Assembly (NCBI GenBank): GCA_043764415.1
Contig: JAYUKO010000155.1
Location: forward strand, 1-54,401
Direction of reading: 5' to 3'
DNA length: 54,401 nucleotides
Source: Bdellovibrionales bacterium
GTDB taxonomy: Bacteria; Bdellovibrionota; Bdellovibrionia; Bdellovibrionales; JAGQZY01
The position numbers and the translations under genes were made by a program. The notes under the pieces were generated by a model that was not told where the DNA came from, searched no databases, and saw only the letters and a list, made by a program, of their open reading frames with translations. Below are positions 12,901 through 37,229 of the stretch, piece by piece (positions within the stretch are counted from its first letter, which is position 1; every line of letters starts with the position of its first letter).

Positions 12901-15544
12901 CGGAAATTGAACCCGCCGGAGTGTTGTCAATTTGATTAGCATCGTAATCACTGGCTGCCGCTACGACAGCTCCTGATCTTCCAAAAACTGTTGTTACGGG
13001 AGCCGAAGGAATCGCAATCCAACTGAGAACTCCCGCGCCGTTTGTGGAAAGCACTTGGCCGTTAGTTCCTGCGGTATCGGGTAAAGTTAACACATAGTTT
13101 GCTGCAATCGTCGCAGGAGCTTGGATGGCTGCGTACTCGCCGCCTGCACTGTCGGCAAAACGAGCTTGGGCTTGAGTGTTGAGTGTAATACTTGTAGCCG
13201 TACTGGCTCCGCGACCTGTTATAGTCGCTAATGTGTCGGCTTCAGCTGTTAGATAACCGTTATTCGACACCATAGCGTCCACTTCGGTTTCGCTGAGCAC
13301 GAAGTTTGTGCGGGTCATTTTTCTGAGTGCCGTTACGCTTGCATCATAAATCAAAATTTCGTCAGCGCCGGCAACTGCTGTTTCAGCTGTGGTTCCGTTA
13401 ATATTCACTGATAAACTGCGGTCAGCAGACAGGTCGCCACCACCGGTGAGTCCGCTGCCTGCAGCGGTATTGACAGCACGTGTGCTTGCCACTTTTTCGC
13501 TATCCAACTCGTTGATCGCGGCTTGTACATCTGTGGCAGCTATTGTTCCTGCCGCGGTGTTATCGATTTGATTGGCGTCGTAATCACTCGCTGCCGCTAC
13601 GACAGCGCCTGATCTTCCAAACACAGTTGTAACTGGCGCAGATGGAATCGCAATCCAGCTAAGAACGCCCGAACCGTTCGTTGAAAGCACTTGGCCATTT
13701 GTTCCTGCAGTGTCTGGCAACGTGAGAACGTAGTTTGCTCCGATTGTTGTAGGAGCTTGAATCGCCGCGTACTCACCGCCTGCGCTATCTGCAAAGCGCG
13801 CTTGATTTTGCGCAGTAAAAGTTAATGCACCACTCATAGAGTCGCCAACTTTAGCAACTTTGTCGGCATCGAGTTCGTTAATGGCTGCTTGAACATTGGT
13901 CGCGGCGATTGTGCCTGCTGCGGTATTTGGAATCACTGCGGAATCCAAATTGGCTTCGTTGACATTGATGTCCACTTCTTTGTTTGCGGCATCCAAAGCC
14001 ACACTCACTTTGTTGCTTGCGGCATTTAAATTTCTAAATTGCAAATCAACACCCGATTTCGCATCGTAAAATCCAACGCCACCAACACCTTGATTGCTTG
14101 CCGTGTTGGTCTCGCCTACTGCTGCAGGAGATGTCCAACTCAACACTCCGCTACCATTTGTGGTGAGCACTTGGTTTACAGCGCCAGCGCCTGCTGGCAG
14201 TGTAAGAGTGTAATTCGCACCCAATGTGGTAAGCGCTTTGATGGCCACGTAGTTTGCACCACTACCATCGGCTTCGGAAAGTCTTAATTCTTGTTCGTTG
14301 TCGATGTTAAGTGCACCGGTCATTGTGTCGCCGGCTTTTGCTACTTTTTCTGTATCTAATTCGTTGATCGCAGCTTGTACTTCAGTAGCGGAAATGGCAC
14401 CTGCAGGAGTGTTATCAATTTGCACAGCATCGTAATCACTGGCTGCTGCAACAACGGCACCCGTTCTGCCGAACACGCTGTCCACCGGAGACACTGCAAA
14501 TTCAGCCGGTCCATCCCAAAACATCAACTTATTCGTCGTGGTGTTGTACCACACCGTGCCTTCGTGCCCTGCTACTAGCGGAGTCGCAACAAGCGTCGCT
14601 TGCTGAGCCGTGGTATAAACTCCAAAGCGAAATGTTCTTTGCGCAGCTTGAGTCATGTGGCCAATGTCGGTTATGTCGTTTGTTGCCATGTCGATGGTGC
14701 CAGCCATTATACCGCCGGCTAAAGGAAGCTTCGTGGGATCGGCACTTCCTGAACTTAAAGTTTGAACAACTGTGCCATCGTAGTAGCGCAGCACAAAGTC
14801 GTCGCTGTCGTACCAAATTTGTCCCGCAGTGGGCGCTCCAGGATTTGTTGCACGGTTTGGAATTACCGTTCCGTTTGTTGTATTTTGTAAATACAGCGAA
14901 CTGCTACCGGCAAGGAGGCCGCTCAGTGTGGTGTAGCTGGCGCCAAAGAGCGTGTTCACTTTAGCCTGGGTGACATCGGTATTGGTCTGCACGAAATCTG
15001 ATGGCGCCATGCCTTGCAATGTTTCAGCAACCAAAGACTGCGGTACGGAATCAATTTGCATATCAGGCGAAAGCGTACTCGTCACACTCGTGGTGCTCGG
15101 TGTAACTATAAAACGAAAGTATCTTGTGTCGCCCGCTGTCGGAATGTACCCGCAACCTGCACCGCCTGAAGTTTTACCAGCAATCGATGCGTTTTGATTT
15201 TGGAAAATCTGCATCATGGAATTTCCAACGTCGATGGTAGCAGTCGTGCGTTTTAAAGACTCAGCGCCAGACGTGGGCGAGCCCACTCGCACGTTGAAGT
15301 ATCCGTTCGACGACAACGTGCTCACCGTTTGTTCTTCTTCGTACAAAATACAAGTTTTTGCAGGATTTAAAATCTGAATTTTCATCAACACGGAATTGTC
15401 GAGAAGCGGATCTTCGGGAGTGGCGGAATCGTAAAGACGTCCATCCACAGTCATAAACTGCGGAGGTTCAGTTTGTGCGAAGGCCATCGATGTCAAAATC
15501 ACCGACCCAACCACAACCGCTAACACTTTGAATTTTAAGAACAT
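6983..15544 (-). CDS. giant secreted repetitive fibre/adhesin (about 2,853 aa) built from phage-tail-fibre-like modules
   Basis: Single uninterrupted frame. The track starts at GTG 15562. I prefer ATG 15544, which gives MFLKFKVLAVVVGSVILTSMAFA|Q. It contains the tail-fibre hallmarks VFGR(T/S)GAVVAAASDYDA.QIDN, VQAAINELD.EKVAK.GD(T/S)M(T/S)GAL and G.VGIGT..PG.LLDV, plus a non-repeated C-terminal domain. Confidence 0.85.
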   Translation of the reverse strand: MFLKFKVLAVVVGSVILTSMAFAQTEPPQFMTVDGRLYDSATPEDPLLDNSVLMKIQILNPAKTCILYEEEQTVSTLSSNGYFNVRVGSPTSGAESLKRTTATIDVGNSMMQIFQNQNASIAGKTSGGAGCGYIPTAGDTRYFRFIVTPSTTSVTSTLSPDMQIDSVPQSLVAETLQGMAPSDFVQTNTDVTQAKVNTLFGASYTTLSGLLAGSSSLYLQNTTNGTVIPNRATNPGAPTAGQIWYDSDDFVLRYYDGTVVQTLSSGSADPTKLPLAGGIMAGTIDMATNDITDIGHMTQAAQRTFRFGVYTTAQQATLVATPLVAGHEGTVWYNTTTNKLMFWDGPAEFAVSPVDSVFGRTGAVVAAASDYDAVQIDNTPAGAISATEVQAAINELDTEKVAKAGDTMTGALNIDNEQELRLSEADGSGANYVAIKALTTLGANYTLTLPAGAGAVNQVLTTNGSGVLSWTSPAAVGETNTASNQGVGGVGFYDAKSGVDLQFRNLNAASNKVSVALDAANKEVDINVNEANLDSAVIPNTAAGTIAATNVQAAINELDADKVAKVGDSMSGALTFTAQNQARFADSAGGEYAAIQAPTTIGANYVLTLPDTAGTNGQVLSTNGSGVLSWIAIPSAPVTTVFGRSGAVVAAASDYDANQIDNTAAGTIAATDVQAAINELDSEKVASTRAVNTAAGSGLTGGGDLSADRSLSVNINGTTAETAVAGADEILIYDASVTALRKMTRTNFVLSETEVDAMVSNNGYLTAEADTLATITGRGASTATSITLNTQAQARFADSAGGEYAAIQAPATIAANYVLTLPDTAGTNGQVLSTNGAGVLSWIAIPSAPVTTVFGRSGAVVAAASDYDANQIDNTPAGSISATEVQAAINELDTEKVAKAGDTMTGALNIDNEQELRLSEADGSGANYVAFKALTTLAANYTLTLPPDDGNSGQYLQTDGNGVLAWVTPAGVGETNTASNQGAGGVGVFKQKTTFDLEFRNINAASNKISVALDAGNNEIDLNVAEANLDLGTIPNTPAGALAATTAQTAINELDTEKVAKSGDSMTGALTLNAQNQARFADSAGGEYAAIQAPATIGTNYVLTLPDTAGSASQVLTTNGSGVLSWTTPSTTPGADTLDFTHFADSMTLDASTDIAASGTNVLSITNTGTGDSFRVNDAAGDTSPFVIDASGNVGVGTSAPGAAFEVGANSGSSSSIRFVPSAANQGSLRFTTNAVANWFQSGLDYTAGSQKDLRFSNMNGSTTWLTINSSNGSVGIGTTAPGTLLDVSGAMTSRPYGTATGETGQLTMRELAAGGAETATIRAPDAITTSYALTLPATAGSSGQVLSTDGTGILSWVSSLAPAADSLDFTHFADAMTLDASTDIAASGTNVLSVTNSGTGDSFRVNDATGDTSPFVIDNSGQVGIGTTAAGRQLHILSSGSSYARVERATQAGGEVGIELFGGTGGQAWAIAQPVASDDLMFYRGGERMRIGANGGVGIGTSSAGTLLDVAGAITSRPNGTGTGQTGQLIMRELAAGGTDTVAIRAPDAITTSYSLTLPGTAGTSNQVLTTDGAGILSWTSSGAASIADDSLNFDKFSDTMSLDASTDIAASGTNFLSITNAGTGDSFRVNDVASDTSPFVIDQSGNVGIGTTVPAQPLHVTGNVRVDGNIVDNVNTTVISSNSKFYAASGTVSVPGYTFQGDVDTGIYRSSANLFHMVTNGVERMTFDASGQVGIGTTTPGSLLEVSGTTNGQLTTLTVVNTATAASGRGPRISLQGNGTTNMAYVAAAWESAATTDAALTFTTRTAGTPTEKVRIDSVGNVGIGTTVPGTILDAAGAITSRPNGTGTGQTGQLIMRELAVGGTDTVAIRAPDAITTSYALTLPGTAGAANQVLTTDGAGILSWTTSSTTPAFPLLGSLGSVGAPTYSFSGDTNTGWYSPSADILAASTGGTERLRIIDNNNNTMAVTGTISAYSITTSNSFYDSTFEDIGSTNSTDNIVNFYRLRGDATAPGAGFGGKVSFQLEGFTDGSRVSASQFSWGWEGAQSNDTTARDSYFSISTTLDNTTSERLRIDSAGNLGIGTTVPGTLLDVNGAITSRPNGTGTGQTGQLIMRELAVGGTDTVAIRAPDAITTSYALTLPGTAGAANQVLTTDGAGILSWTSTGAASIADDSLNFDKFSDTMSLDASTDIAASGTNFLSITNTGTGDSFRVNDVASDTSPFVIDQSGNVGIGTSAPAAVLHQSSNRSAAAWAANGIGIRQDAATYTDTTSSGTVAANYVNAFATPTLAASGATTYTKAATVYIADKPTAGANTTFTDANALYVASGGVGIGGFNTNQYGLWVEGNSAGISPVVTVKNSSSGVGSGTSIQFKAGTVNAASIYTEVESANNNFMAFETRTASSLTEKARILASGNFGIGTTIPGTLLDVAGAVTSRPSGTGTGQTGQLILRELAAGGADTATIRAPDAITTSYALTLPTTAGSSGQVLQTNGSGVLSWVTALTGTTGFVNAGNSFTADATLGTNDNYGLLFETNNSTRIEIKNNGDIEFGGASFNPAKFEFMTNPYSETTGTVINQSNYAFVNGVAAGSANFIGQESYVISNRSGNQTGTMTATRARVDHTGAAGGANLSAAKVGEFIFQGSAETATNVSILDVVSGVDGTGSITNNYGVRVRAATDTSTGAIANNYGVYIDSQTAGSTLNYALYSAGGANYFAGNVGIGSITPAVALDVAGTARVLASDEGAATATNSSTTYTIPDLSRNVRRITLNGNTTLTLPTIGTLATDQAFTLTVRVVQDATGSRTLAWAGNGNTIKWDTGTAAAPAAGVGETTIYQFLIIGGETTWYASMVWREN
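8045..11728 (-). repeat. five dispersed copies of an approximately 88-aa module, plus larger near-identical DNA duplications, inside the fibre gene
   Basis: Module GIGT..PGTLLDV.GA.TSRP.GTGTGQTGQL.(M/L)RELA.GG.DT..IRAPDAITTSY.LTLP.TAG...QVL.T.G.G.LSW occurs at about 8045-8302, 9055-9310, 9826-10080, 10804-11060 and 11471-11727. There is a 92-bp perfect identity at 9153-9244 = 9924-10015. About 250 bp at 8883-9134 is near-identical to 10632-10883 (offset 1749 bp). Confidence 0.85.
12165..14482 (-). repeat. A-B-A' super-repeat (about 290 + 206 + 290 aa) of tail-fibre-like modules inside the fibre gene
   Basis: Units starting VFGR(T/S)GAVVAAASDYDA recur three times. The first and third units are collinear (..NIDNEQELRLSEADGSGANYVA.KALTTL..NTASNQG.GGVG..). 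The DNA offset is 1488 bp, seen in the antisense ORFs ending at 12799 and 14287. Confidence 0.8.
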
Positions 15545-15635
15545 TAAAAGACGTAGCACCACGATAAACTTATCGGTTTTAAATGCGAAAAATTAAGGGA
15601 TTAGACAAAAGTTGGGCATATTGTATGGGTATATT

Positions 15636-19314: not shown

Positions 19315-19651
19315 GACGAAATTTGCTGCGTCATTGATGATGAATAATTAAGCAGATTGTTTTTGCTAACAAAAAGTCTACCTACAAAAAAATTAGCGTA
19401 GCTTTTGGAAATTTTTCTAAGCATAAAATTCCTTTACGATTTTGGAACAACTAATTTTTACTGGTTTTATCGTCTAAATACGCAAATGCTCTGCGACATT
19501 TCAGAATATTTTGAATTTCAAAAAATTTATGATGCGTACCTTCAATTACAATCGAGTGTATAAATTTTTTCTTGTCGATGATGCCACTTTGACACTTTTT
19601 TTGATCTCAAGCACCACCCTACCAGAAACAAAAAGGTAAAAAGGGGTTTTT

Positions 19652-22462
19652 ATGGGGTGGTCTTTAAGTTTTGGGGCTTTATTTTTTACGATTCAATTAT
19701 TGATGCCGCTTGCGGCCAGTGCCGAGGGGCTCAAATGCGAGGCCGTATTTTCGGCACCATCACAAGTTCTACTTTCACCCCTCGAATCGGCCGAGCGCTT
19801 TCGCGACTATTTTTCAGCACTCAACGAAACACTCGTTGAACGTCAGGAAGTGCTGCATTTAATTCAAGTGGCATTGATTGCCCAAGAACACGTTTTACTC
19901 ATGGGACCTCCAGGAAATGCAAAGTCCATGGTGGCAGATCTAGTTTTAGGTGGAATCACCGAAAAAGCCACTGGCGAAAAGTCTTATTACCGAATTCAAA
20001 TGACGCCCGAGACCTCCATGTCTGAAACACATGGTCCCATCAACCCTAAAGAGATTTTTGAATCTGGAAAAATTGTGCGTGAGTATGATCAAGGCATGCT
20101 TTTTTCCAGAAATGTTTTTATCGACGAAATTTTTGATGCTCGAGCCAACGCACAGAGAAATATTCTAGGTCTCCTCGCCGAGCGCCAACACGCCCAAGGA
20201 ACAGAAATTGTTGCAGGAGATATCGAAACGGTTATCGGTGCCACTAATAGATACCTTGACGAAGTTTACGAAAAAGCCGGAGATCAAGGGCCCAAAGCGC
20301 TTTTAGATCGATTTAGTTTTAATATTTATGTGCCAGGTGAATTCCATCTTTCCTCAAGCTACAATCGACTCATCAGCTCTTCAAAAAAAGATCGAAAGCC
20401 GTTACCAAAACTTACTTTTGACGATTTAGAAAGTTTGCGAACGCTCGTAAAGGACGTGGAAATCACCCAAGATGTGGGCCAGTTTTTATCGCTGCTATCA
20501 TTTCGTATGAAGTCACAAACCGAGGCCATGGAACAGGCGGAGCTAAAAAACTACCGCAAGAGAATTCAACAGGGCGAAAATCCACCACCTCCCTACAGAG
20601 CAACGAAGTACCACTCCCCCCGCACATTGTTTAAAGCCGCAGGCATTTTAAAAGCCTTTGTTGTTTACGATTGGGTGCAATCAGGTGGAACTCGTCCTTT
20701 AAGCACAACCATCGAAGATATTAAAATGTTAAAAGACTTTTTTGTGTTGAGCGGCCCCGAGCAGACTTTTGTTCTCGCCATGCTCGAAAGAACTTCGAAC
20801 CCGTACGAGCGCAGCCAGCTGTCGACAATTATCGAAGAGTCAAAAATGTTCGAAGACATTTATCGTGAGATATCTTCCGAGACAAATGACGTTATCTATA
20901 AATACGCGCTTGAAGACCTGGAACACAGTGTGATCAATTCGCAAACCAAGGATCAAAAACAAGCGGTTATTCTCAATCTGGTTAAAATATGGATAGAAAC
21001 CCGCGAGGCCAGTCGCCAAGAAATTCAGGCAGACATGTCCGGTCGAGAGATTGGCTATGCTGTTGTAGCGACCTATGTGGAACAAAAACTTCGCCAAATT
21101 GCAGGGTCTGATTTTGAGAACGTTGTACAAAAGAAAGTTCTCGAGATCGAAGCGGCTCAACGCGAGGCCATTGAACAGCAACGTTTGGCAGAAAAAAAGC
21201 AAAAAGAGGAAATAGAACGCCAGGCGCGGGAGCTTGTAGCTCAACAAAAGCGCGCCGAAATGGAGAAAAAGATAGATCAATATCTTGCGAACCAGGGCCT
21301 CGAAGCTCTTAAAGATATACCTCATTCATTTGTGAACCATTCGGATTTTCCCATCAACAAAATAGACAGGAGCATTTTCTTTGAACAGGGAAAGTCGCAT
21401 TATATTAAGTCCGGCGATGATATCTACGCGCTGCTGCCAGGGGACGCTGGATATGTGGTCAAAAAGGATGGGTCCGTCGTCATCATTGACTACAAAAATG
21501 TGGCAGATTCCGTTTTGCGAGAACTTTTAATGTCGGATTCCACGAAGGTTTTTGAAAAGATCGACGAAACAACGCTTTTGATTTCGGACCATAACAGCGT
21601 GGCACAGATCGTAAGTCTCCCCGATTTTAAGGTGAACAAAACAATCATCTTAAAAAATGTCTCTCAAGTCTTCCTCGATCAAAATAAAAAGCAAATCTGG
21701 GCGACCAGTTTTTCAACCCAGGAATTTCGTCGCATTGATATAAAAACTGGTACGACCGAAGTGTTTAAAACAGGTCAATTGCAATATTTTACTTCGGAAT
21801 CACTTAAGAGCAAAATTATACAAATCAGTTCTAGTGAATTTATTTTTATAATCAATGAGCCTTCCCAAGGAAATATACTTTGGGCAGAAATTAAAGTTGG
21901 TGATCCATCCCAGGGTTTAAATCTTTCGTGGAATCATATCTTACCCACATCACTCCATCGATCTGAAATTCCTCTCTTTACATCGCAACGTTCAGACCAA
22001 CAGGACATTGTTTATGCTCGAACAGGACATATCATTATGCCGTTCAGCATAAGACTCCAGCGAAGCAAAGACACGACCGCAATAGACAACGATACGCGGT
22101 CAAAACCGATTCAAATTGTTGATCAGACAGGAGGGAAGCTGAATAACGATACCGATATTTATTTTCCGCAGAGCGATAAATACGTTGCCGTACAGCAAAA
22201 CAATGGAGACCTTCTTGTTTTCGATCTCGAGTCACAGCAATATATAAATCAAGCAAAACCCATAATGTTGGATAGTGAGTCTAAAAACGTGACAGAGATG
22301 TTTTGGATCGATAACGAGACATTATTGGTAACGTATTTGGATCTTGCCGGAAATAGCGGAATCAGAGTTTTGAAGTTAAAATCACAACCTCGAGCGACGA
22401 TCGAAGCGCTTATCAAAAGACGTGATTCTGAAGCTGCTCTACAGAAAAAAGACGAAAACTAA
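19652..22462 (+). CDS. MoxR/RavA-like AAA+ ATPase with an N-terminal signal-like segment, a coiled coil and a beta-rich C-terminal domain of about 370 aa
   Basis: 936 aa. RBS aaaagggg. N-terminus MGWSLSFGALFFTIQLLMPLAASA|EG. Walker A GPPGNAKS (19904-19927), Walker B VFIDEIFD (20114-20137), then ..VIGATN..LLDRFSF, as in RavA/MoxR. E/K/Q coiled coil at about 21140-21290. Confidence 0.8.
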   Translation: MGWSLSFGALFFTIQLLMPLAASAEGLKCEAVFSAPSQVLLSPLESAERFRDYFSALNETLVERQEVLHLIQVALIAQEHVLLMGPPGNAKSMVADLVLGGITEKATGEKSYYRIQMTPETSMSETHGPINPKEIFESGKIVREYDQGMLFSRNVFIDEIFDARANAQRNILGLLAERQHAQGTEIVAGDIETVIGATNRYLDEVYEKAGDQGPKALLDRFSFNIYVPGEFHLSSSYNRLISSSKKDRKPLPKLTFDDLESLRTLVKDVEITQDVGQFLSLLSFRMKSQTEAMEQAELKNYRKRIQQGENPPPPYRATKYHSPRTLFKAAGILKAFVVYDWVQSGGTRPLSTTIEDIKMLKDFFVLSGPEQTFVLAMLERTSNPYERSQLSTIIEESKMFEDIYREISSETNDVIYKYALEDLEHSVINSQTKDQKQAVILNLVKIWIETREASRQEIQADMSGREIGYAVVATYVEQKLRQIAGSDFENVVQKKVLEIEAAQREAIEQQRLAEKKQKEEIERQARELVAQQKRAEMEKKIDQYLANQGLEALKDIPHSFVNHSDFPINKIDRSIFFEQGKSHYIKSGDDIYALLPGDAGYVVKKDGSVVIIDYKNVADSVLRELLMSDSTKVFEKIDETTLLISDHNSVAQIVSLPDFKVNKTIILKNVSQVFLDQNKKQIWATSFSTQEFRRIDIKTGTTEVFKTGQLQYFTSESLKSKIIQISSSEFIFIINEPSQGNILWAEIKVGDPSQGLNLSWNHILPTSLHRSEIPLFTSQRSDQQDIVYARTGHIIMPFSIRLQRSKDTTAIDNDTRSKPIQIVDQTGGKLNNDTDIYFPQSDKYVAVQQNNGDLLVFDLESQQYINQAKPIMLDSESKNVTEMFWIDNETLLVTYLDLAGNSGIRVLKLKSQPRATIEALIKRRDSEAALQKKDEN

Positions 22463-22465
22463 AGC

Positions 22466-25400
22466 ATGAATCTTACTTTGAGTTTTTTTCTTATTTTTCT
22501 AACTGGTTGGAATGCACTTGCCGCAGACAAGTGCACCAGTTTGTTTTCTATCTTTCAAAAACAAGAAGCTGATTTGTATCAGGGGCAAGACGTTCTTGAT
22601 GCCATCAAAAAACTCAATCCCTACTTTTTGGACTATTCGAATTTGCAAAAAAGTATTGATTCACTCCTCAATGATATATCGTCGTTACGAGATCCAAACT
22701 CTCGGATCAAAGACATCGAAGCGGCGCTCGATAACGAACAGCTTGATCCGTGGGTGGCCCAAACATTAGTCGAAGCTCTCTCTCGTCGACTGGCAGAGGA
22801 TGCGCGACAAATTCTGACGGACCAGAATCCGTCGGCCGCGCCGGTGCGAAAAACTCTAGAGGGCTACCGCCTTCTTTTATCGAAACTGCAAAAGCTTTCG
22901 CAAAAAGCTCAGGAGCTTGCAAAGGAGCCGCAAACTGCCGAAGATCAGCCCACTCGGCCTGTCGAAGAGTCTGCTGAGCAAAAACAGCGACCGCGCATTG
23001 ATAAAAAAAGCTTGAGCCTCGAAGACGTCGCAAAGGAAATGGCAGAGCAGCTCAGCGAGCAAAAACAGCGCCCAGTGAACCGCCAAGATGTGGACGCACT
23101 GAACGAGCAGGACGTTCGCGATTTACAAGAGCAAGCAGCGCAAAAAATGATGGACCAACTGAAGAACAACGAATCTTCGCCGCCTGATCCCAACCAAAGC
23201 AAAGATTCGCCCCAATCCGAAAACCGTGAAGCCCAGGAGGCGCTTGAAGAGCGTTTGCAAAAAATGGCCGAAGAGGCGCAGGAGCGCAATCAAGAACAAG
23301 ATTCCAAACCCGAGGAAGCCAAAGGCGAACCTAAAGAAGCTGCTGAGTCCGAGCCTCCTCCCCGTTCCCTTTTTGAGGAAGCTTATAAAAAAGCACTCGA
23401 AGAATGGAATCAGAAGGAATCTAAAGAAAGCGAAAAACCACAAGAGGACGGCAAACCACAAGAGGACGGCAAACCACAAGACGGCAAAGGCGACGGCAAA
23501 CCGCAAGACGGCAAAGGTGAAGGCAAACCCCAAGACGGCAAATCACCAGATAGCCAATCACAAAAAGACGAAAAAGGCGGAGATAGCTCCGGTGACGGCT
23601 CGGGCATCAAAGACTTATTGGGCAATCTCAGTGATTTTCTCGATAAACTCAAAGCCGACCAAAAAGAGCGACTCGATTTGCAGAAACAGGACTCAACGCA
23701 AGACCCAGAACAAGAACGTCCTGATCGAGAATTGCCAAAAGACACAACCTCGCGCAACAACGATAATTTTGGCAAAGAAAGCAAAACAAGAAATCCCAAA
23801 ACTCCGAAAAAACCAGATCTCGTGCAAAATTTAGATCAACTGCTCGATTCGATCTGGTCGCAAATTCTTAATCAATATCAGAATAGTTCACACTTTATGC
23901 GAATGGTGACAGATTTTTCTTCGCTATGTCAGTCCCTAGCCGTGAACAACCCTCATCAGGCCCATATCCTCCAACAAAAAATCGCTCGTGCGAACGAACT
24001 AACAGACAAACTACGCCTGCTGGCCGTGGAGTATAAAGACATCGAAGATCTTGCCACCTCCCTGTCCAGCGGATCTGCAAAAATCGAATTTCTTCGAAGA
24101 ATCAGATATCTCAAAACCATTTTTGAAGCCAAAGACGACGCTCACAATTTAGAAAACGGCGAAGAACGCGCGCTGCAAACAATTAACGAAATTTTAAATC
24201 AACTGGAAACAAGCTTAGGATCTGCGAATAATGAAGTTATTAGCGAAACCTTTCGCGATCTTTTGGCTGGACCACTTTCGCGAAAAGTCGTCGACGAAAA
24301 CTATCCCCCGGTTACTAAATCGCAACAAATGGATGCAGACACGCTCGTCCAAGACTTAAAAAATGGAACGTTAAACGATCTCGTTATTTACAATCGGTTA
24401 AAACCGTATGTGGATATTCTCTTTAATGATCTATTTAAGCCTCGTTCTTTCGAAAAGTTCGAAGGCCCTTATATTCCGATCAATGAGTCTGATCGGAAAT
24501 TAGAAAAACTTGAAGACTTCGACGACATCCCCCACGCTGTGAAGGAAGGGTTTTCGTCAGAACTCGAATTGCTTCGCCTCCTCGCTGGCGACATGCTCAA
24601 ATTTGCTTATCCAGAAAAAATAAAAAAGATGGATCCGCGCAAACCCTATCCAAAACGTGCAAGTATTGTGCTTTACGACATTAGCGGATCCATGACGGAG
24701 AATCATAAACAAGATCTGCGAAATGCGCTATTAACAGCATTCATGGACCGCAGTCAGATCGAAGTGGCCAAGGGTGAGGGTGAACACACCGTTTACTTGA
24801 TTCCTTTTGATGATCGTCCCCATGAGACCCGATTGATCGCAAATCTCGCGCAAGCACAAACGGCCTTTGATGACTTTCGGGCTCATCCAACGGGTTCCGG
24901 CGGCGGCACCAGCATCACAGCTGCGTTAGTTCGAGCCTTTAACCTTATTGCTGAACATCAGAAAAATGGTGGAGATTTGGAACGGGCAAATATTCTTCTC
25001 TTAACTGATGGGCAAGACTCTCTCGACTTTGCAAAGCTCGAGGAGGCTCGCTCGCAGATAGATCCCACAGTGGATATCGCTCTCAACGCTGTCACTTTGG
25101 GTGTGTGGAACGACAACCTCAGCGACATGGTCAAGAAATATGCTGTGAAAGGCGATGGCGACATAGGCAAAGTTTCCCATCAACATATTCCCTACGACGA
25201 AATCCAACGACTCCTTAGCCCCGAAAGTGAAGTCGAGGAGCTGATTCAATCCGCTAAATATTTTGACAAGACAAACACTTCAACAATTTCTGATCAACTG
25301 ATCGATAAAGCGCGCGGCCGCATGATGGCTGTGGCTAACGAGCGTTCAAGCCGCGATAGAAATGCGGGGATGCAGCTTGAGCGTTGGGCTCAAAAATTAC

Positions 25401-25630
25401 AAGCTCTTAAGCTCTCTTCCGAAGCCAACGAACTCACTCCTCTGTTTGATGTGTTCGTCGATACGGTGGTTAGCGCTACCGGTAAAAGCTGGTCGCGCTT
25501 CGGAAAATTAGAAGCCTGGGAAGCGTTTATTGAAAACTCCGAAACTCAAACAGAGCTTTCACAAAAAGATCTCCTCAGTTACTTAGGGGCAAAACACCGC
25601 GACCGCATCTTTCAATGGATGTCAGAGTGA
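22466..25630 (+). CDS. vWA (MIDAS) domain protein, ViaA-like partner of the AAA+ ATPase, with a signal-like N-terminus and an acidic disordered region of about 300 aa
   Basis: 1054 aa. Starts 3 nt after the upstream stop. N-terminus MNLTLSFFLIFLTGWNALA|AD. C-terminal vWA domain with MIDAS VLYDISGSM (DISGS = 24677-24691) and a later LLLTDGQDS. Confidence 0.8.
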   Translation: MNLTLSFFLIFLTGWNALAADKCTSLFSIFQKQEADLYQGQDVLDAIKKLNPYFLDYSNLQKSIDSLLNDISSLRDPNSRIKDIEAALDNEQLDPWVAQTLVEALSRRLAEDARQILTDQNPSAAPVRKTLEGYRLLLSKLQKLSQKAQELAKEPQTAEDQPTRPVEESAEQKQRPRIDKKSLSLEDVAKEMAEQLSEQKQRPVNRQDVDALNEQDVRDLQEQAAQKMMDQLKNNESSPPDPNQSKDSPQSENREAQEALEERLQKMAEEAQERNQEQDSKPEEAKGEPKEAAESEPPPRSLFEEAYKKALEEWNQKESKESEKPQEDGKPQEDGKPQDGKGDGKPQDGKGEGKPQDGKSPDSQSQKDEKGGDSSGDGSGIKDLLGNLSDFLDKLKADQKERLDLQKQDSTQDPEQERPDRELPKDTTSRNNDNFGKESKTRNPKTPKKPDLVQNLDQLLDSIWSQILNQYQNSSHFMRMVTDFSSLCQSLAVNNPHQAHILQQKIARANELTDKLRLLAVEYKDIEDLATSLSSGSAKIEFLRRIRYLKTIFEAKDDAHNLENGEERALQTINEILNQLETSLGSANNEVISETFRDLLAGPLSRKVVDENYPPVTKSQQMDADTLVQDLKNGTLNDLVIYNRLKPYVDILFNDLFKPRSFEKFEGPYIPINESDRKLEKLEDFDDIPHAVKEGFSSELELLRLLAGDMLKFAYPEKIKKMDPRKPYPKRASIVLYDISGSMTENHKQDLRNALLTAFMDRSQIEVAKGEGEHTVYLIPFDDRPHETRLIANLAQAQTAFDDFRAHPTGSGGGTSITAALVRAFNLIAEHQKNGGDLERANILLLTDGQDSLDFAKLEEARSQIDPTVDIALNAVTLGVWNDNLSDMVKKYAVKGDGDIGKVSHQHIPYDEIQRLLSPESEVEELIQSAKYFDKTNTSTISDQLIDKARGRMMAVANERSSRDRNAGMQLERWAQKLQALKLSSEANELTPLFDVFVDTVVSATGKSWSRFGKLEAWEAFIENSETQTELSQKDLLSYLGAKHRDRIFQWMSE
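23435..23542 (+). repeat. in-frame tandem repeats encoding KPQ(E)DG(KG.G) units
   Basis: AAACCACAAGAGGACGGC occurs twice, followed by three units of the AAACC.CAAGACGGCAAAGG.GA.GGC type. Translation: KPQEDGKPQEDGKPQDGKGDGKPQDGKGEGKPQDGK. Confidence 0.9.
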
Positions 25631-25782
25631 TCACTTTTTAGTCACTGGCTGTTGACCGTACGCAGACTTCGCTTGACTCATTTTGAAACACTAATTTTCA
25701 TAAGTTATTTCAATAATTTGCGGGATAAATCTCAAGCCTTTTTGGCACTCCCTTTGCTTTAATACCAAGTAAGGGGTGATTT

Positions 25783-26082
25783 ATGAAAACACTATTAGTT
25801 CTACTAACAATGTCTGTAACGTTCTCGGCTTTGGCAATTCCACAACACGAAGAGCGAACCGTGAGCTCTAGCGAAACACCAACTTGTGTGTTCGAGTCCG
25901 CAGACGTGGGCAAGATGAAATTTCGCGGCACATCACGTGAAGAGGCCTTTGAGCGAACTGCTAGAGCCTGTTTGCAAGCACGGGTTCAAGGCTACATTAA
26001 AATTCGTGGGGACATTCCATCCACAGAACGAAAAATTCTCTTCGCTGAAGACTGCGTCAACAAAACCTATTGTAAACACTAA
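25783..26082 (+). CDS. small secreted protein with four Cys
   Basis: 99 aa. RBS aagggg. Signal peptide MKTLLVLLTMSVTFSALA. Four cysteines in the mature part. Confidence 0.55.
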   Translation: MKTLLVLLTMSVTFSALAIPQHEERTVSSSETPTCVFESADVGKMKFRGTSREEAFERTARACLQARVQGYIKIRGDIPSTERKILFAEDCVNKTYCKH

Positions 26083-28692: not shown

Positions 28693-29217
28693 ATGTCCAA
28701 AGCATGGAAATTACTTGCAACAAAAACCGGCGAAAAAGTTAAAGTGGATGCCGAAGATTACGAAGAATTACTCAACCGCAGCTGGCGAGTGATTTATCGT
28801 GGCAAAGAAAAAAAGCCGCTGGTTGTAACAAGTATTCGCACGGGTGATTCCTCACGGACCATGTCGTTGGGCCAATACTTGATGAAGCCTAAAAAAGGAA
28901 AAATGGCCTACCCCCGTCGCTGGCAAGCCGGGCTGGACTATCGAAAAGAAAATATCGTCGTTTGCAGCATGAAGGAACGCCAGCGCATGCTTCCGAAGCG
29001 CGCCGAAAAAACGTCTTCAAAATTTCGCGGAGTTTCGTACATTCGAGCTAAAAAAATCTGGCGAGCTCGCATCGAGAAAAACAGCAAGGCCTTCTTTTTG
29101 GGAGATTACGCCACCGAAGAGGCCGCCGCCAGAGCTTACAACAAAGCCGCTCGCGATCTATTTGGCGACTTGGCCTATCAAAATATCGTCGATCGCATTA
29201 AAGACCGACGCAATTAA
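28693..29217 (+). CDS. AP2/ERF-type DNA-binding domain protein on a degenerate HNH-like scaffold
   Basis: 174 aa. RBS aggag. AP2 domain: SKFRGVSYIRAKKIWRARIEKNSKAFFLGDYATEEAAARAYNKAARDLFG. The N-terminal 110 aa resemble the HNH_3 layout (VDAEDYEEL..W, LDYRKENIVVCS) but contain no histidine. Confidence 0.75.
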   Translation: MSKAWKLLATKTGEKVKVDAEDYEELLNRSWRVIYRGKEKKPLVVTSIRTGDSSRTMSLGQYLMKPKKGKMAYPRRWQAGLDYRKENIVVCSMKERQRMLPKRAEKTSSKFRGVSYIRAKKIWRARIEKNSKAFFLGDYATEEAAARAYNKAARDLFGDLAYQNIVDRIKDRRN

Positions 29218-33659: not shown

Positions 33660-33860
33660 CAATTCGACCGAAAGGGCACTTCCCGTAAAACTATGCCCTG
33701 GTTTTTGTAGTTTATGATTTTTACACAAAAACCATAGAAGTTTTATACTTTGCGTTAAATTAAAACAAATTCACTTCTTAGTCAGGTATGTATCCCCTTA
33801 TTCACATTAAACACTGCCAGTTTTTTTTAAAATGAATGATTGGTGGAAAGGACTTTATAC

Positions 33861-36800: not shown

Positions 36801-37229
36801 TCACGCCTCAGCGGTGATCAGAACTTTTACGTGATCCGCAATACAGAGTCGGACTCTTGGATGAATTCTTTGCAAGAACCAGAACTCATCACCGTTACGA
36901 TAGAGAACAAACGTTTTGTGACAACTTCTGCCTACCTTGATGGAGCCAAAGGCTACACAACGATGGTTGGCTTGGTTCGCGGTTCGCAAAAAATCGCCGT
37001 GATTGAGTCTGAGGCTGGAGTGCAGGTTTTTGCTCTCAGCAAAGATCAGCGTCCCGAAGTTATCAACGTCCGTATGACAAAAGAGGATGGTTCCATCAGC
37101 GACGCCCAAAGCGCCCTTGAAATTGGCGGACTTAGCTATTCTCCAATGATTAATTATACTGAAGCGCAAAACAGTATCGAAGTGGCTGCCGGCCTTCGCG
37201 GTGTTGTTCAGCTGTATCTTAGCAAGTAA
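33861..37229 (+). CDS. large lipoprotein, beta-propeller (COG4880/Beta_propel-like) family
   Basis: I start at ATG 33861, giving MSKSLLIVLSFAGLALASC|S. The segment EQEADVFKIGKPGSKEVYLLNNYRGLQIVSF resembles the family motif (D.vK.DG..iY..n...L.I.d). Long beta-rich sequence. Confidence 0.6.
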   Translation: MSKSLLIVLSFAGLALASCSQSQTGESPAVETSHAFRLMPTPADQTLWTSQLSRYAGQTEFLTINPWSDGGMEAAVPVSAEASNEREEQEADVFKIGKPGSKEVYLLNNYRGLQIVSFAKGANNPEILGRVNPTGNYPQRMYSDLTNDRLIVIENTYNNSKMTSRLVVYDVSNSSAPLISSIIDIAGYSVDSRIVGSVLYLATYESQTSGSIWFNDEASNGKVLSFDIQGKDITAIAEFKMKLPIASPEMMNIQVTGAGADTKYYLVAIQTEMNRDWWSWWSGPAAVEVIDITDPKGEIKPLMTANVKGFISERSSTLIRNGYLIVTSNYIINAEAEEQVLRIAVEAFQLPKANSEVISPQEAQYRQLHIDRQVSAAKDSDKQKLHEQLLADSALGLKGRFVQEDNGSLKKIVADSDVTVGDTNGKSASLQDVRYDGNYLYAFWVPADQVDPLDVFDIGNLDQGVKHLGRLEFDGWIEKSFPITFQSRKFIVGLGWVVPAVDTEDTQRKMQAKLFEVKTEKISERDPITGNIITKDKVVATVVPGAELVITMDGGSMYADLNSPDRYIQLLMNPAAPGKGQILFEAASYEAGSYRQGGQIIQIDMNEAVLGLGSTAISKGPFLEANEGWLRRMFANPELANMYNAFSDSSLSTFETISSGQGLAKTISVLELARNITAYYVLKAAQSDVGVQVISNYNYNDTSIVELRTVKTNQADAESNKVSGVVKIEGSLQSSIVYENNKSVLLLTSQTVNTKQDVENSSTTIKYSLTKVNLNANQEMQTSTQSWTETQSYQWDPSAAAKTQFDGNESLTLLRDGTVLVKTEQAQILKANQTLGLVAINDSTCPQASNVKAVTVKEIDGQLVYFTQQTVDVENVKGAATKNTISLATLKAGTLVCSAEINIPGTPVMITGTQVVTDDLFASDVKIIEEEYTNEDGTKIYGLKSKNVNALSLVELQTTNKASLLDSTTDISTNYGMEQTSRLSGDQNFYVIRNTESDSWMNSLQEPELITVTIENKRFVTTSAYLDGAKGYTTMVGLVRGSQKIAVIESEAGVQVFALSKDQRPEVINVRMTKEDGSISDAQSALEIGGLSYSPMINYTEAQNSIEVAAGLRGVVQLYLSK

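What the first reader, a model, noticed from the sequence alone, without database searches (positions are those of the whole stretch)
19652..25630. Oversized RavA/ViaA-like MoxR AAA+ and vWA pair in which both proteins look exported
Seen in the sequence:
- Two genes lie 3 nt apart.
- Gene 1 (936 aa) has a complete MoxR/RavA-type P-loop module: GPPGNAKS, VFIDEIFD, VIGATN, LLDRFSF.
- Gene 2 (1054 aa) ends in a vWA domain with an intact MIDAS DxSxS motif (DISGS).
- Both proteins begin with a hydrophobic segment ending in a canonical AxA site (LAASA|EG and NALA|AD).
- Both are about twice the size of classical RavA/ViaA. The ATPase adds a coiled coil and a beta-rich C-terminal domain of about 370 aa. 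The vWA protein adds an acidic disordered spacer of about 300 aa.

Established knowledge: MoxR ATPases work with vWA partners (RavA-ViaA, NorQ-NorD, CbbQ-CbbO) in the cytoplasm. MoxR-vWA cores have also been predicted computationally in conflict systems.

Inference: an ATPase behind a Sec-type signal is paradoxical, because the periplasm has no ATP. There are three readings:
- The segments are N-out membrane tethers. Neither has a basic n-region, which fits this.
- The pair acts inside another cell, for example prey cytoplasm if this organism is a predator.
- The ATPase has been repurposed.

I know of no described family with this architecture.
Basis: partly seen in the sequence, partly recalled or inferred. 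Interest (0 to 1): 0.8.

Follow-up and report, generated by a model that had tools for sequence, protein, structure and literature searches.

The report
Exported MoxR ATPase–vWA pair in predators
Two adjacent genes from an uncultured predatory bacterium (Bdellovibrionota) encode an intact ATP-burning motor protein and its adhesion-type partner that both carry export signals, so the motor appears built to work outside the cytoplasm, where bacteria normally have no ATP.

Summary
Gene 1 (19652-22462, 936 aa) has a Sec-type signal, one invariant Cys, a MoxR AAA+ core, a helical lid, a ~96-residue single-helix stalk and a beta-propeller. Gene 2 (22466-25630, 1054 aa) has a signal, one Cys, a helical domain, a 298-aa acidic disordered spacer, a second helical domain, a vWA domain with intact MIDAS, and a helical tail.

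The pair is adjacent in all 15 loci examined (window, L001-L013, L017). All 13 loci from the named genome collection are Bdellovibrionota MAGs. No third gene is conserved.

The ATPase is not RavA. Its best Pfam family is PF20030 (bpMoxR, Kaur et al. 2020). It belongs to a signal-bearing clade of about 100 clusters, next to a signal-less GPPGTAKS clade.

Evidence for export:
- The n-region is basic in 85 of 100 members, with small-x-small sites.
- Cys is almost absent (0.02% vs 0.97% in the sister clade, p = 6e-28).
- Catalytic residues are kept in 95-96 of 96 members.

The propeller evolves about 13 times faster than the motor, and some relatives carry an FGE-sulfatase domain instead.

Best reading: an extracytoplasmic MoxR-vWA machine, probably fuelled by prey-derived ATP. 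That last step is inferred. It is a new variant of a known kind.

The parts
19641..19646 (+). SD-like AAGGGG, 5 nt upstream of the gene 1 ATG
   Evidence: Read directly from the sequence. There is no in-frame alternative start before Met84, which lies inside the AAA+ core.
19652..22462 (+). Gene 1: exported-type MoxR AAA+ ATPase with stalk and beta-propeller (936 aa)
   Evidence: ORF. PF20030 bpMoxR at 78 bits. AF2 model with pLDDT 84.5. Foldseek matches to RavA, CHU_0153 and WD40/BamB propellers.
19652..19723 (+). Gene 1 signal peptide-like segment (aa 1-24, ...PLAASA|EG)
   Evidence: The tripartite signal is conserved in about 100 relatives.
19736..19738 (+). Cys29, the only Cys in gene 1, in the motif C-x-x-x-[LFV]
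   Evidence: Invariant in 42 of 42 sequences in alignment A1. Present in 96 signal-bearing relatives.
19787..20461 (+). AAA+ core (aa 46-270): Walker A GPPGNAKS, Walker B DE158-159, sensor-1 N199, R220
   Evidence: Catalytic residues are kept in 95-96 of 96 members.
20462..21031 (+). Helical lid and extension (aa 271-460)
   Evidence: pLDDT above 90. 46% mean identity across the family.
21041..21328 (+). Single long helix, the 'stalk' (aa 464-559, ~96 residues)
   Evidence: DSSP helix 464-559 in the AF2 model.
21329..22381 (+). Beta-propeller head (aa 560-910), fast-evolving
   Evidence: Foldseek matches to Fbw7, BamB and WDR5 at E 1e-8 to 1e-10. 13% mean family identity. 56% identity to the L001 orthologue against 96% for the AAA+ core.
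22466..25630 (+). Gene 2: exported-type vWA/MIDAS partner (1054 aa)
   Evidence: ORF. VWA_2 at 32 bits. Adjacent to gene 1 in all 15 loci examined.
22466..22525 (+). Gene 2 signal peptide-like segment (aa 1-20, ...WNALA|AD)
22532..22534 (+). Cys23 in the motif C-T-S-L-F, the same C-x-x-x-hydrophobic motif as gene 1
   Evidence: Present in 10 of 11 sequences in alignment A3.
22583..22921 (+). N-terminal helical domain (aa 40-152)
   Evidence: Secondary structure from the low-confidence model. 84% identity to L001.
22922..23815 (+). Acidic disordered spacer (aa 153-450). It includes the KPQ(E)DG tandem repeats at nt 23435-23542.
   Evidence: Composition. TRF. Length ranges from 186 to 433 aa among homologues.
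23819..24607 (+). Conserved helical domain (aa 452-714), with no Pfam match
   Evidence: 91% identity to L001.
24653..25216 (+). vWA domain (aa 730-917) with MIDAS DISGS (nt 24677-24691), T847 and D848
25220..25624 (+). All-helical C-terminal tail (aa 919-1053). It is not a propeller.
   Evidence: Secondary structure. No Pfam hit.

Best explanation
**What it is.** A self-contained two-gene operon encodes an export-adapted MoxR-vWA machine. So far it is found only in predatory Bdellovibrionota.

**Export.** Both proteins are made with Sec-type signal peptides and end up outside the cytoplasmic membrane. They could be in the periplasm, at the cell surface, in the bdelloplast lumen or inside the prey cell. 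The final destination is not resolved.

**The motor.** The MoxR protein presumably forms the usual AAA+ ring. Each subunit projects a ~14 nm helical stalk that ends in a rapidly diverging beta-propeller. In some relatives the head is an FGE-sulfatase-like domain instead. This head is the target-recognition part.

**The partner.** The vWA partner docks on the motor and uses its MIDAS site as the second grip on a substrate. The single conserved Cys left in each otherwise Cys-free protein forms an intermolecular disulfide or another covalent link in that oxidising compartment.

**The fuel.** The catalytic site is strictly conserved, so the machine hydrolyses ATP. The only plausible source outside the predator's cytoplasm is the prey. 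ATP could leak from the breached prey cytoplasm into the bdelloplast and the predator's periplasm, or the machine could enter the prey cytosol. The machine would then be inert until prey is breached, and would go on to remodel, extract or disassemble a prey or interface protein.

**Shown:** genes, domains, strict pairing, signals, Cys purge, intact active site, fast-evolving head, and descent from cytoplasmic bpMoxR-type pairs.

**Inferred:** actual export and cleavage, ring assembly, the disulfide, prey ATP as fuel, and a role in predation.
For: **Family placement**
- PF20030 bpMoxR scores 78 bits against a gathering cut-off of 27.
- Exhaustive phmmer finds 177 clusters at E < 1e-30. They split into a signal-bearing clade, mostly GPPGNAK[ST], and a signal-less ~850 aa clade, mostly GPPGTAKS.

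**Pairing**
- Gene 1 and gene 2 homologues are adjacent in the window, L001-L013 and L017.
- No third gene is conserved, and flanks vary except in L001.
- A signal-less sister pair, L018, shares the MoxR-then-vWA order. Its vWA domain is 30% identical to that of gene 2 (E 1e-16), and neither protein has a signal.

**Export**
- 85 of 100 n-regions are net positive.
- 59 of 100 flanks after the segment are net negative.
- The median uncharged span is 19 residues.
- All 60 sequences scored have a small-x-small site.
- There is no lipobox and no twin-arginine motif.

**Cys purge**
- Over the homologous 370 aa, Cys is 0.02% in the signal-bearing clade and 0.97% in the sister clade (p = 6e-28).
- 69 of 86 members have no Cys downstream of the N-terminal one.
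- Cytoplasmic proteins in the same window have 1.5-3.6% Cys.

**Active ATPase**
- K91, E159, N199 and R220 are 96/96, and D158 is 95/96.

**Structure**
- AF2 pLDDT is 84.5.
- Foldseek matches RavA and CHU_0153 for the motor, and WD40/BamB propellers for the head.

**Variable head**
- Family identity is 59% for the AAA+ core and 13% for the propeller.
- Against the L001 orthologue, identity is 96% vs 56% and dN is 0.024 vs 0.323.
- The head is an FGE-sulfatase domain in P0029, P0034 and P0055.

**Taxonomy**
- All 13 genome-collection loci are Bdellovibrionota MAGs.

**ATP outside the predator**
- They also cite uptake of intact nucleoside monophosphates (Ruby 1985).
- Extracytoplasmic MIDAS proteins already have a role in predation: Bd0875 (PMC11003981).
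Against: - No dedicated signal-peptide or topology predictor could be run. Export rests on heuristics and the Cys signature.
- This window's own n-regions have no K or R.
- The Cys comparison is between different phyla. In-window exported proteins are not all Cys-poor.
- Cys co-occurrence between partners is imperfect: 13 loci have it in both, L013 in neither, and L017 only in the vWA protein.
- No close homologue was found in a cultured Bdellovibrio. There are no expression, proteome or phenotype data.
- I could not read the ATP-uptake papers themselves. I saw only their titles.
- The gene 2 model is poor (pLDDT 47.6), and no complex model was possible.
Confidence: 0.55

Rival explanations
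1. Envelope surveillance or defence rather than attack. The exported MoxR-vWA-propeller pair is the predator's own extracytoplasmic threat sensor against phage, competitors or prey counter-measures. This would keep the conflict-system role proposed for its cytoplasmic relatives. The propeller would act as a diversifying antigen sensor.
For: - It is homologous to bpMoxR of predicted conflict systems.
- It has a fast-evolving sensor-like head, and some relatives carry an FGE-sulfatase head instead.
- In Actinobacteria, a Sec-exported surface beta-propeller sensor (EsrA) signals through MoxR and vWA proteins to sense epibionts (bioRxiv 10.64898/2026.09.08.750141).
Against: - No effector, kinase, FHA or transmembrane signalling partner is conserved next to the pair.
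- In Esr only the sensor is described as carrying a Sec signal. Here the motor itself carries the signal.
- An exported ATPase still needs an external ATP source. That source exists only when a cell has been breached.
Confidence: 0.17
2. Uncleaved signal-anchor version. The N-terminal segments are not cleaved. They hold both proteins on the outer face of the predator's inner membrane (N-in, body in the periplasm), and the Cys sits just beyond the membrane.
For: - The median uncharged span is 19 residues. In this window's gene 1 the hydrophobic run is about 20 residues.
- AF2 models residues 3-17 as a helix.
Against: - Small-x-small sites follow every h-region scored, often with a helix-breaking Pro or Gly.
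- Many relatives have h-cores of only 9-14 residues, too short to span a membrane.
- This reading changes only the tethering. It does not change the compartment.
Confidence: 0.15
3. N-out membrane tether with cytoplasmic bodies. The hydrophobic N-termini insert with the N-terminus outside, and the ATPase and vWA domains stay in the ATP-containing cytoplasm.
For: - This window's two proteins have no K or R before the hydrophobic segment.
- This reading would remove the ATP paradox.
Against: - Across the family, 85 of 100 n-regions are net positive. The following 15 residues are net negative in 59 and neutral in 17. That is the opposite of what the positive-inside rule requires.
- Cys is purged relative to cytoplasmic homologues.
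- The conserved AxA-type sites would have no purpose in this topology.
Confidence: 0.07
4. Ordinary cytoplasmic RavA/ViaA-type or bpMoxR conflict pair with mis-called starts. The hydrophobic segments would not be translated.
For: Two database homologues (P0017, P0030) lack the segment as annotated.
Against: - Both of those start inside the conserved Cys motif, so they are truncated gene calls.
- The next Met in gene 1 after the signal is residue 84, inside the AAA+ fold.
- An SD-like site precedes the annotated ATG.
- The signal architecture is conserved in about 100 clusters even though its sequence identity is only ~23%.
- RavA scores 43 bits against a cut-off of 681.
Confidence: 0.03

Closest known systems
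bpMoxR (Pfam PF20030) of the MoxR-vWA-beta-propeller ternary conflict systems (Kaur, Burroughs, Iyer & Aravind 2020, eLife 9:e52696; PMC7159879)
   Same: - It is the best-scoring family for the AAA+ domain (78 bits).
- The MoxR gene is followed directly by a vWA gene.
- A beta-propeller is part of the system.
- No conventional effector is present.
- A signal-less clade carrying the published GXXXTAKS P-loop is the nearest relative found.
   Different: - Both proteins carry Sec-type signals and one Cys.
[quoted passage not shown]
- There is no third TM/TPR/propeller component.
- The P-loop is GPPGNAKS.
- The mature proteins are Cys-free.
- All named members are Bdellovibrionota. The paper's main text does not mention that group or signal peptides.
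E. coli RavA-ViaA (PDB 3nbx, 4upb, 6q7l)
   Same: - It is the closest solved structure for the motor (Foldseek E 1.6e-12; phmmer 9e-11).
- The overall logic is the same: an AAA+ ring, then a helical arm, then a beta-rich target-binding domain (LARA in RavA), with a vWA partner gene.
   Different: - RavA and ViaA are cytoplasmic and about half the size.
- The NCBIfam RavA equivalog model scores 43 bits against a cut-off of 681.
- The head is a propeller, not a LARA domain.
- Gene 2 has no ViaA match.
Bd0875-type MIDAS adhesins of Bdellovibrio bacteriovorus (Nat Commun 2024, PMC11003981)
   Same: - It is an extracytoplasmic vWA/MIDAS protein of a bdellovibrio.
- It acts at the predator-prey junction.
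- Its function requires the DxSxS motif.
   Different: - Bd0875 is a ~380 aa lipoprotein with a lipobox and four predicted disulfides.
- The paper describes no MoxR partner for it.
- Gene 2 is 1054 aa, has no lipobox, is almost Cys-free, and is always paired with an ATPase.
Outward-facing AAA+/FtsH proteins predicted in phytoplasmas (PMC6981957, citing Seemuller et al. 2013). From my own knowledge, signal-peptide-bearing AAA+ proteins of parasites and organelles: Plasmodium HSP101 in PTEX and ER-lumenal torsins.
   Same: An AAA+ ATPase is placed outside the producer's cytoplasm, in a compartment where another cell supplies the ATP.
   Different: - They belong to different AAA+ clades (FtsH, ClpB, torsin).
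- The phytoplasma proteins are membrane-anchored, and their topology is only predicted and is disputed.
- None involves a vWA partner or a diderm periplasm.
Esr threat-sensing pathway of Actinomycetales (bioRxiv 10.64898/2026.09.08.750141)
   Same: A diversifying beta-propeller sensor exposed outside the cell is combined with MoxR and vWA proteins.
   Different: - In Esr the propeller sensor is a separate Sec-exported filament.
- MoxR and vWA there pass the signal on to kinase and FHA proteins.
- Here the propeller and motor are one exported polypeptide, and no signalling genes are linked.

Membership tests
MoxR class of AAA+ ATPases | Walker A, Walker B, sensor-1 and Arg finger all intact | tested here: met
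   GPPGNAKS, D158-E159, N199 and R220 are present. They are kept in 95-96 of 96 members of the clade.
MoxR class of AAA+ ATPases | Fold closest to solved MoxR proteins | tested here: met
   The top Foldseek hits are RavA (4upb, 3nbx, 6q7l) and CHU_0153 (2r44), at E about 1e-12.
MoxR class of AAA+ ATPases | Adjacent vWA/MIDAS partner gene | tested here: met
   Adjacent in all 15 loci examined.
RavA/ViaA (NCBIfam NF010054 equivalog) | Whole-protein score above the curated cut-off | tested here: not met
   43.2 bits against a cut-off of 681. Only aa 46-279 match.
RavA/ViaA (NCBIfam NF010054 equivalog) | LARA domain on a triple-helical arm, and a ViaA-type partner | tested here: not met
   The C-terminal domain matches WD40/BamB propellers, not LARA. 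Gene 2 has no ViaA or PDB sequence match.
MoxR-vWA-beta-propeller ternary system (Kaur et al. 2020) | MoxR domain matches PF20030 above the gathering score | tested here: met
   78.2 bits against 27. All homologues also match.
MoxR-vWA-beta-propeller ternary system (Kaur et al. 2020) | [quoted passage not shown] | tested here: not met
   Only 137 residues follow the vWA domain. They are predicted all-helical and have no Pfam hit. The model is low-confidence, but the length alone rules out a propeller.
MoxR-vWA-beta-propeller ternary system (Kaur et al. 2020) | Third conserved component with a variable N-terminus, a TM segment, TPR and a beta-propeller | tested here: not met
   All-against-all clustering of flanking ORFs in 14 loci finds no conserved third family.
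MoxR-vWA-beta-propeller ternary system (Kaur et al. 2020) | P-loop often of the form GXXXTAKS | tested here: not met
   The window has GPPGNAKS. In the signal-bearing clade, 50 of 86 have GPPGNAKS and 7 have GPPGTAKS. In the signal-less clade, 49 of 64 have GPPGTAKS.
Sec (SPase I) signal peptide | Tripartite n/h/c structure with small residues at -3 and -1 | tested here: met
   LAASA|EG and NALA|AD are present. All 60 sequences scored have such a site. This was tested by heuristic only. SignalP was not available.
Sec (SPase I) signal peptide | Basic n-region and N-in orientation (positive-inside rule) | tested here: inconclusive
   The window's own proteins have no K or R in the n-region. Across the family, 85 of 100 are net positive, and the charge difference favours N-in in 81 of 100.
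Sec (SPase I) signal peptide | Actual translocation and cleavage | not testable with these tools
   This needs fusions, fractionation or N-terminal proteomics.
Bacterial lipoprotein (SPase II) | Lipobox [LVI][ASTVI][GAS]C with Cys at +1 | tested here: not met
   The Cys lies a median of 9.5 residues (range 1-47) after the h-region, in acidic context. Canonical lipoboxes do occur elsewhere in the window: LVAC, LASC and VVSC.
Tat signal | Twin-arginine S/T-R-R-x-F-L-K motif | tested here: not met
   The motif is absent from both N-termini and from nearly all relatives.
Bd0875-type MIDAS adhesin | Lipobox, small N/C beta domain and inserted MIDAS domain, ~380 aa | tested here: not met
   Gene 2 is 1054 aa, has no lipobox, and has helical flanking domains. 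No direct sequence comparison was possible because the Bd0875 sequence is not held.

The most novel reading that the evidence does not exclude
This would be the first family of Sec-exported, catalytically active AAA+ ATPases in diderm bacteria. It would be a MoxR-vWA machine that predatory Bdellovibrionota place outside their own cytoplasm. Prey ATP would be both its fuel and its 'prey breached' trigger. A diversifying propeller or FGE head and a MIDAS grip would seize prey or interface proteins. A conserved N-terminal Cys in each partner would link them covalently in the oxidising compartment.
Probability: 0.35. Interest if true: 0.85.

Novelty: new variant of a known kind. Interest (0 to 1): 0.7.

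Why it matters
Textbook bacterial cell biology holds that the periplasm and cell exterior contain no ATP, so AAA+ motors are cytoplasmic.

This family has about 100 sequence clusters, an untouched active site, export signals on both partners, and a Cys content rewritten for an oxidising compartment. That suggests one lineage, the obligate predators, has moved an ATP-driven remodelling machine across its membrane.

If true, three things follow:
- It gives a concrete handle on how bdellovibrios act on prey from outside their own cytoplasm.
- It makes 'is there usable ATP in the bdelloplast or predator periplasm?' directly testable.
- It shows how a cytoplasmic conflict module (bpMoxR-vWA) can be re-tooled for inter-cellular attack.

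If the proteins turn out to be cytoplasmic, the strict conservation of Sec-like N-termini and the Cys purge would themselves need explaining.

Tried and rejected
- **tblastn of gene 1 against plasmids.** It gave only generic AAA hits at 25-28% identity over the core. Uninformative.
- **PADLOC.** No defence-system match.
- **Word-indexed homologue searches for gene 2.** They were swamped by the low-complexity spacer or were too insensitive, giving 3 hits each. I recovered the gene 2 family by tblastn on the fetched loci instead.
- **Gene 2 AF2 model from a 5-sequence alignment.** Mean pLDDT was 47.6. I used only its secondary structure and ran no fold search on it.
- **Profile search of the gene 2 family against the PDB.** It returned only low-complexity hits (Nop58 tail) and a weak CLCA vWA hit.
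- **The listing of cluster members for taxonomy of divergent members.** No organism names were returned.
- **Regex check of catalytic motifs.** It produced false negatives because of insertions. I replaced it with an alignment-based count.
- **Obligate MoxR-S-S-vWA heterodisulfide.** L013 lacks the Cys in both partners, which fits. L017 lacks it only in MoxR. I downgraded this to one option among several; the others are a homodimer or another covalent link.
- **Supplement search of Kaur et al. for Bdellovibrio.** Nothing was held.
- **Ruby & McCabe 1986.** The paper could not be read. Its title is known only from a reference list.
- **Literature phrases such as 'periplasmic AAA+', 'secreted AAA+' and 'periplasmic MoxR', and 'Bdellovibrio' with 'MoxR'.** No relevant paper was found.
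- **Promoter and terminator scan.** Results were at chance level.

Full report
**1. Observation**

Every quoted motif is present. An SD-like AAGGGG lies 5 nt before the gene 1 ATG. The next in-frame Met after the signal is residue 84, inside the AAA+ fold, so a downstream start is not credible.

The genes are real. About 100 homologue clusters exist. Against the syntenic orthologue in L001, dN/dS is 0.016-0.022 for the AAA+ core, lid and stalk.

**2. Anatomy of gene 1**

Pfam's best hit is PF20030, 'MoxR domain in the MoxR-vWA-beta-propeller ternary systems' (78 bits against a cut-off of 27, aa 49-225). There are weak WD40 and propeller hits at aa 836-904. The NCBIfam RavA equivalog scores 43 bits against a cut-off of 681, so this is not RavA.

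An AlphaFold2 model built on a 42-sequence alignment is confident (mean pLDDT 84.5):

| Residues | Element |
|---|---|
| 3-17 | low-confidence N-terminal helix |
| ~40-270 | AAA+ core |
| 273-460 | helical lid and extension (pLDDT above 90) |
| 464-559 | one uninterrupted helix |
| 560-910 | beta-rich domain |
| 914-935 | terminal helix |

Foldseek against the PDB matches the motor to RavA and the MoxR protein CHU_0153 (E about 1e-12). It matches the beta domain to WD40 and BamB-type propellers (Fbw7, BamB, WDR5; E 1e-8 to 1e-10).

**3. Anatomy of gene 2**

Pfam finds only a generic vWA domain (VWA_2, 32 bits, aa 735-850). The MIDAS residues D738, S740, S742, T847 and D848 are invariant in 11 family members.

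The spacer (aa 153-450) is 24.8% D+E with net charge -21. It contains KPQ(E)DG tandem repeats. Its length varies from 186 to 433 aa among homologues.

The AF2 model is poor (pLDDT 47.6), so I used only its secondary structure: helical 40-152, mostly disordered 153-450, helical 452-714, alpha/beta vWA 730-917, and helical 919-1053. There is no propeller after the vWA domain.

**4. Family and context**

A scan of one genome per species (185,579 species) found 13 loci. All are uncultured Bdellovibrionota or Bdellovibrionales MAGs.

- Gene 1 and gene 2 homologues are adjacent in the window, L001-L013 and L017. The order is reversed in the two FGE-sulfatase variants, L009 and L017.
- No third gene is conserved. 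Flanks are unrelated except in L001, the 78%-identical relative, which is syntenic over about 10 genes.
- One 1.6 Mb MAG chromosome carries two pairs (L002 and L006).
- The window's neighbours are housekeeping or envelope genes: an MFS transporter, an M23 peptidase, a CCA/poly(A) polymerase and QueG.

**5. Two clades**

Exhaustive phmmer against 1.84 billion representatives gave 3330 hits, 177 of them at E < 1e-30. Inspecting the top 150 shows a sharp split.

- **Signal-bearing clade.** The best ~100 clusters have an N-terminal signal-like segment followed by a Cys. The Walker A motif starts at residue ~75-160, and at ~415-485 in a few members with a large N-terminal insert. The P-loop is mostly GPPGNAK[ST].
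- **Signal-less clade.** Below about 190 bits lies a large set of ~850 aa proteins that begin directly with the AAA+ domain. Their P-loop is GPPGTAKS, the 'GXXXTAKS' variant that Kaur et al. report for these systems.

One such sister, P0060 in L018 (72% GC), is also followed after a 3-nt gap by a vWA gene. That vWA domain is 30% identical to gene 2 (E 1e-16). Neither protein has a signal. The MoxR-then-vWA operon is therefore ancestral, and export is the derived trait.

**6. Are they really exported?**

No dedicated predictor was available, so I used four independent lines.

- **(a) Signal anatomy.** Of the 60 sequences scored, which include three gene 2 homologues, 52 have a net-positive n-region and all have a small-x-small site just after the hydrophobic core. 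Many cores are only 9-14 residues long.
- **(b) Positive-inside rule.** Over 100 signal-bearing members, the N-flank is net positive in 85. The 15 residues after the segment are net negative in 59 and neutral in 17. The charge difference favours N-in/C-out in 81. The lack of K or R in this window's two proteins is the exception, not the rule.
- **(c) Cys purge.** Over the homologous 370-residue AAA+/lid region, the signal-bearing clade has 0.02% Cys and the signal-less clade has 0.97% (Mann-Whitney p = 6e-28). 69 of 86 members have no Cys at all downstream of the N-terminal one, against 1 of 64 whole proteins in the sister clade. This is not a genome-wide trait: cytoplasmic proteins in this window have 1.5-3.6% Cys, while gene 1 has 0.11% and gene 2 has 0.19%.
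- **(d) Other signal types.** The Cys is not in a lipobox. It lies a median of 9.5 residues beyond the h-region, whereas genuine lipoboxes occur elsewhere in the window. There is no twin-arginine motif.

**7. The retained Cys**

Cys29 is invariant in 42 of 42 aligned sequences. Both partner families share the same context, C-x-x-x-[L/F/V]. Position +4 is L, F or V in 83 of 96 gene 1 relatives, and the gene 2 family shows the same pattern.

A lone conserved Cys in an otherwise Cys-free exported protein suggests an intermolecular disulfide or another covalent link. Co-occurrence between partners is suggestive but imperfect: both have it in 13 loci, neither in L013, and only the vWA protein in L017. 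I therefore do not claim an obligate MoxR-vWA heterodisulfide.

**8. The ATPase is alive**

In an alignment of 96 signal-bearing members, K91, E159, N199 and R220 are 96/96, D158 is 95/96 and R169 is 95/96. A decayed or merely structural AAA+ domain would not be held like this.

**9. Constant motor, variable head**

| Region | Mean family identity to the window protein | Identity to the L001 orthologue | dN against L001 |
|---|---|---|---|
| AAA+ core | 59% | 96% | 0.024 |
| Lid | 46% | 95% | 0.032 |
| Stalk | 24% | 92% | 0.041 |
| Propeller | 13% | 56% | 0.323 |

dS is saturated, so the dN/dS ratios are approximate. In about ten relatives the head is an FGE-sulfatase-like domain instead. Some members lack a head, for example P0066 at 493 aa.

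In gene 2, the vWA domain (74% identity to L001) and the C-terminal tail (74%) diverge faster than the 451-720 helical domain (91%). That makes the helical domain the likely motor-docking part and the vWA domain the likely target-facing part. This is inference.

**10. Mechanism**

*Shown:* an intact MoxR motor and a MIDAS partner, always together. Both have export signals and an exported-type composition. The motor carries a fast-evolving protein-binding head on a long stalk.

*Inferred:*
- After Sec export the motor forms a ring, as RavA does.
- The vWA protein docks on it.
- The propeller or FGE head and the MIDAS site hold a substrate, and ATP hydrolysis remodels or extracts it.

ATP is the crux. 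For an obligate predator, the space outside its cytoplasm can contain prey ATP once the prey membrane is breached. Reference lists cite an ATP transport system in B. bacteriovorus 109J (Ruby & McCabe 1986) and uptake of intact nucleoside monophosphates (Ruby et al. 1985). I could read only the titles. The machine would then be switched on by prey breach.

Whether it stays in the predator periplasm, sits on the surface or enters the prey is unresolved. An extracytoplasmic MIDAS protein already has a demonstrated role at the invasion junction (Bd0875, PMC11003981), but it is an unrelated ~380 aa lipoprotein with no described ATPase partner.

**11. Comparison with known systems**

The pair works like a RavA-ViaA or bpMoxR-vWA pair: a motor, a helical arm, a beta-rich binding domain and a vWA adaptor. 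Membership is narrower.

- It meets the MoxR criteria.
- It fails the RavA equivalog test.
- It meets only the PF20030 criterion of the published beta-propeller ternary system. It fails the vWA-propeller fusion, the third component and the GXXXTAKS P-loop.

The nearest conceptual precedents for an AAA+ domain facing a foreign ATP pool are the predicted outward-facing FtsH/AAA+ proteins of phytoplasmas (PMC6981957). From my own knowledge, Plasmodium HSP101 is another.

The Esr pathway puts a Sec-exported propeller sensor outside the cell and links it to MoxR and vWA proteins. The preprint passages I read describe a Sec signal only for the sensor.

I found no paper on Bdellovibrio MoxR or on exported or periplasmic AAA+ proteins in the searchable library.

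**12. Verdict**

This is a new variant of a known kind: an export-adapted, two-gene, head-on-motor offshoot of the bpMoxR-vWA systems in predatory bacteria.

| Claim | Confidence |
|---|---|
| Both bodies are extracytoplasmic | about 0.75 |
| Prey ATP fuels the machine and it serves predation | about 0.35 |

Interest is 0.7.

Noticed in passing
window 6983-15562 (-): A 2859 aa ORF with a signal-like N-terminus, no Pfam hit and only 2 Cys (0.07%). It is a giant exported protein of unknown function. The adjacent ORF at 5541-7103 (-) carries a Laminin_G_3 domain.
   Followed up: partly
window 23435-23542 (+): Near-perfect 18-nt and 27-nt tandem repeats encode KPQ(E)DG(KG) units inside the gene 2 spacer. 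Spacer length varies from 186 to 433 aa among homologues, so the linker expands and contracts.
   Followed up: partly
window 25783-26082 (+): A 99 aa ORF with a signal peptide and 4 Cys lies just downstream of the pair, after a terminator-like hairpin at 25750-25776. It has no Pfam hit and is not conserved in other loci.
   Followed up: partly
window 40642-41235 (-): An IS200-like Y1 transposase (PF01797, E 5e-10).
   Followed up: partly
window 33840-37229 (+): A 1129 aa predicted lipoprotein (LASC lipobox) with a PF09826 beta-propeller domain. It is a second exported propeller protein in the window and has no sequence link to gene 1.
   Followed up: partly
window 28693-29217 (+): A 174 aa protein with a sub-threshold AP2-domain hit (32.1 bits against a cut-off of 33.3). 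This domain is unusual in bacteria.
   Followed up: no
L006 8734-14085 (OZ220488.1, second pair in a 1.6 Mb MAG): The MoxR of this paralogous pair is only 493 aa (P0066). It has the signal, Cys, AAA+ core and lid, but no stalk or propeller. A 415-nt gap separates it from the vWA gene. It is either a headless variant or a decaying copy.
   Followed up: no
P0103, P0104, P0117, P0124, P0134, P0135; P0082, P0083, P0091, P0092, P0123: Some signal-bearing clade members have a 350-440 aa insert between the signal/Cys and the AAA+ domain. Others are giants of 1200-1600 aa. The exported family has more architectures than the one in the window.
   Followed up: no
L017 788-1759: The gene upstream of the FGE-variant pair encodes a 323 aa protein with a signal followed by '...SGPCREE', another post-signal Cys. 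It is not seen in other loci.
   Followed up: no
L009 and L017: Both FGE-sulfatase-headed variants have the gene order vWA then MoxR, the reverse of the propeller-headed loci.
   Followed up: partly
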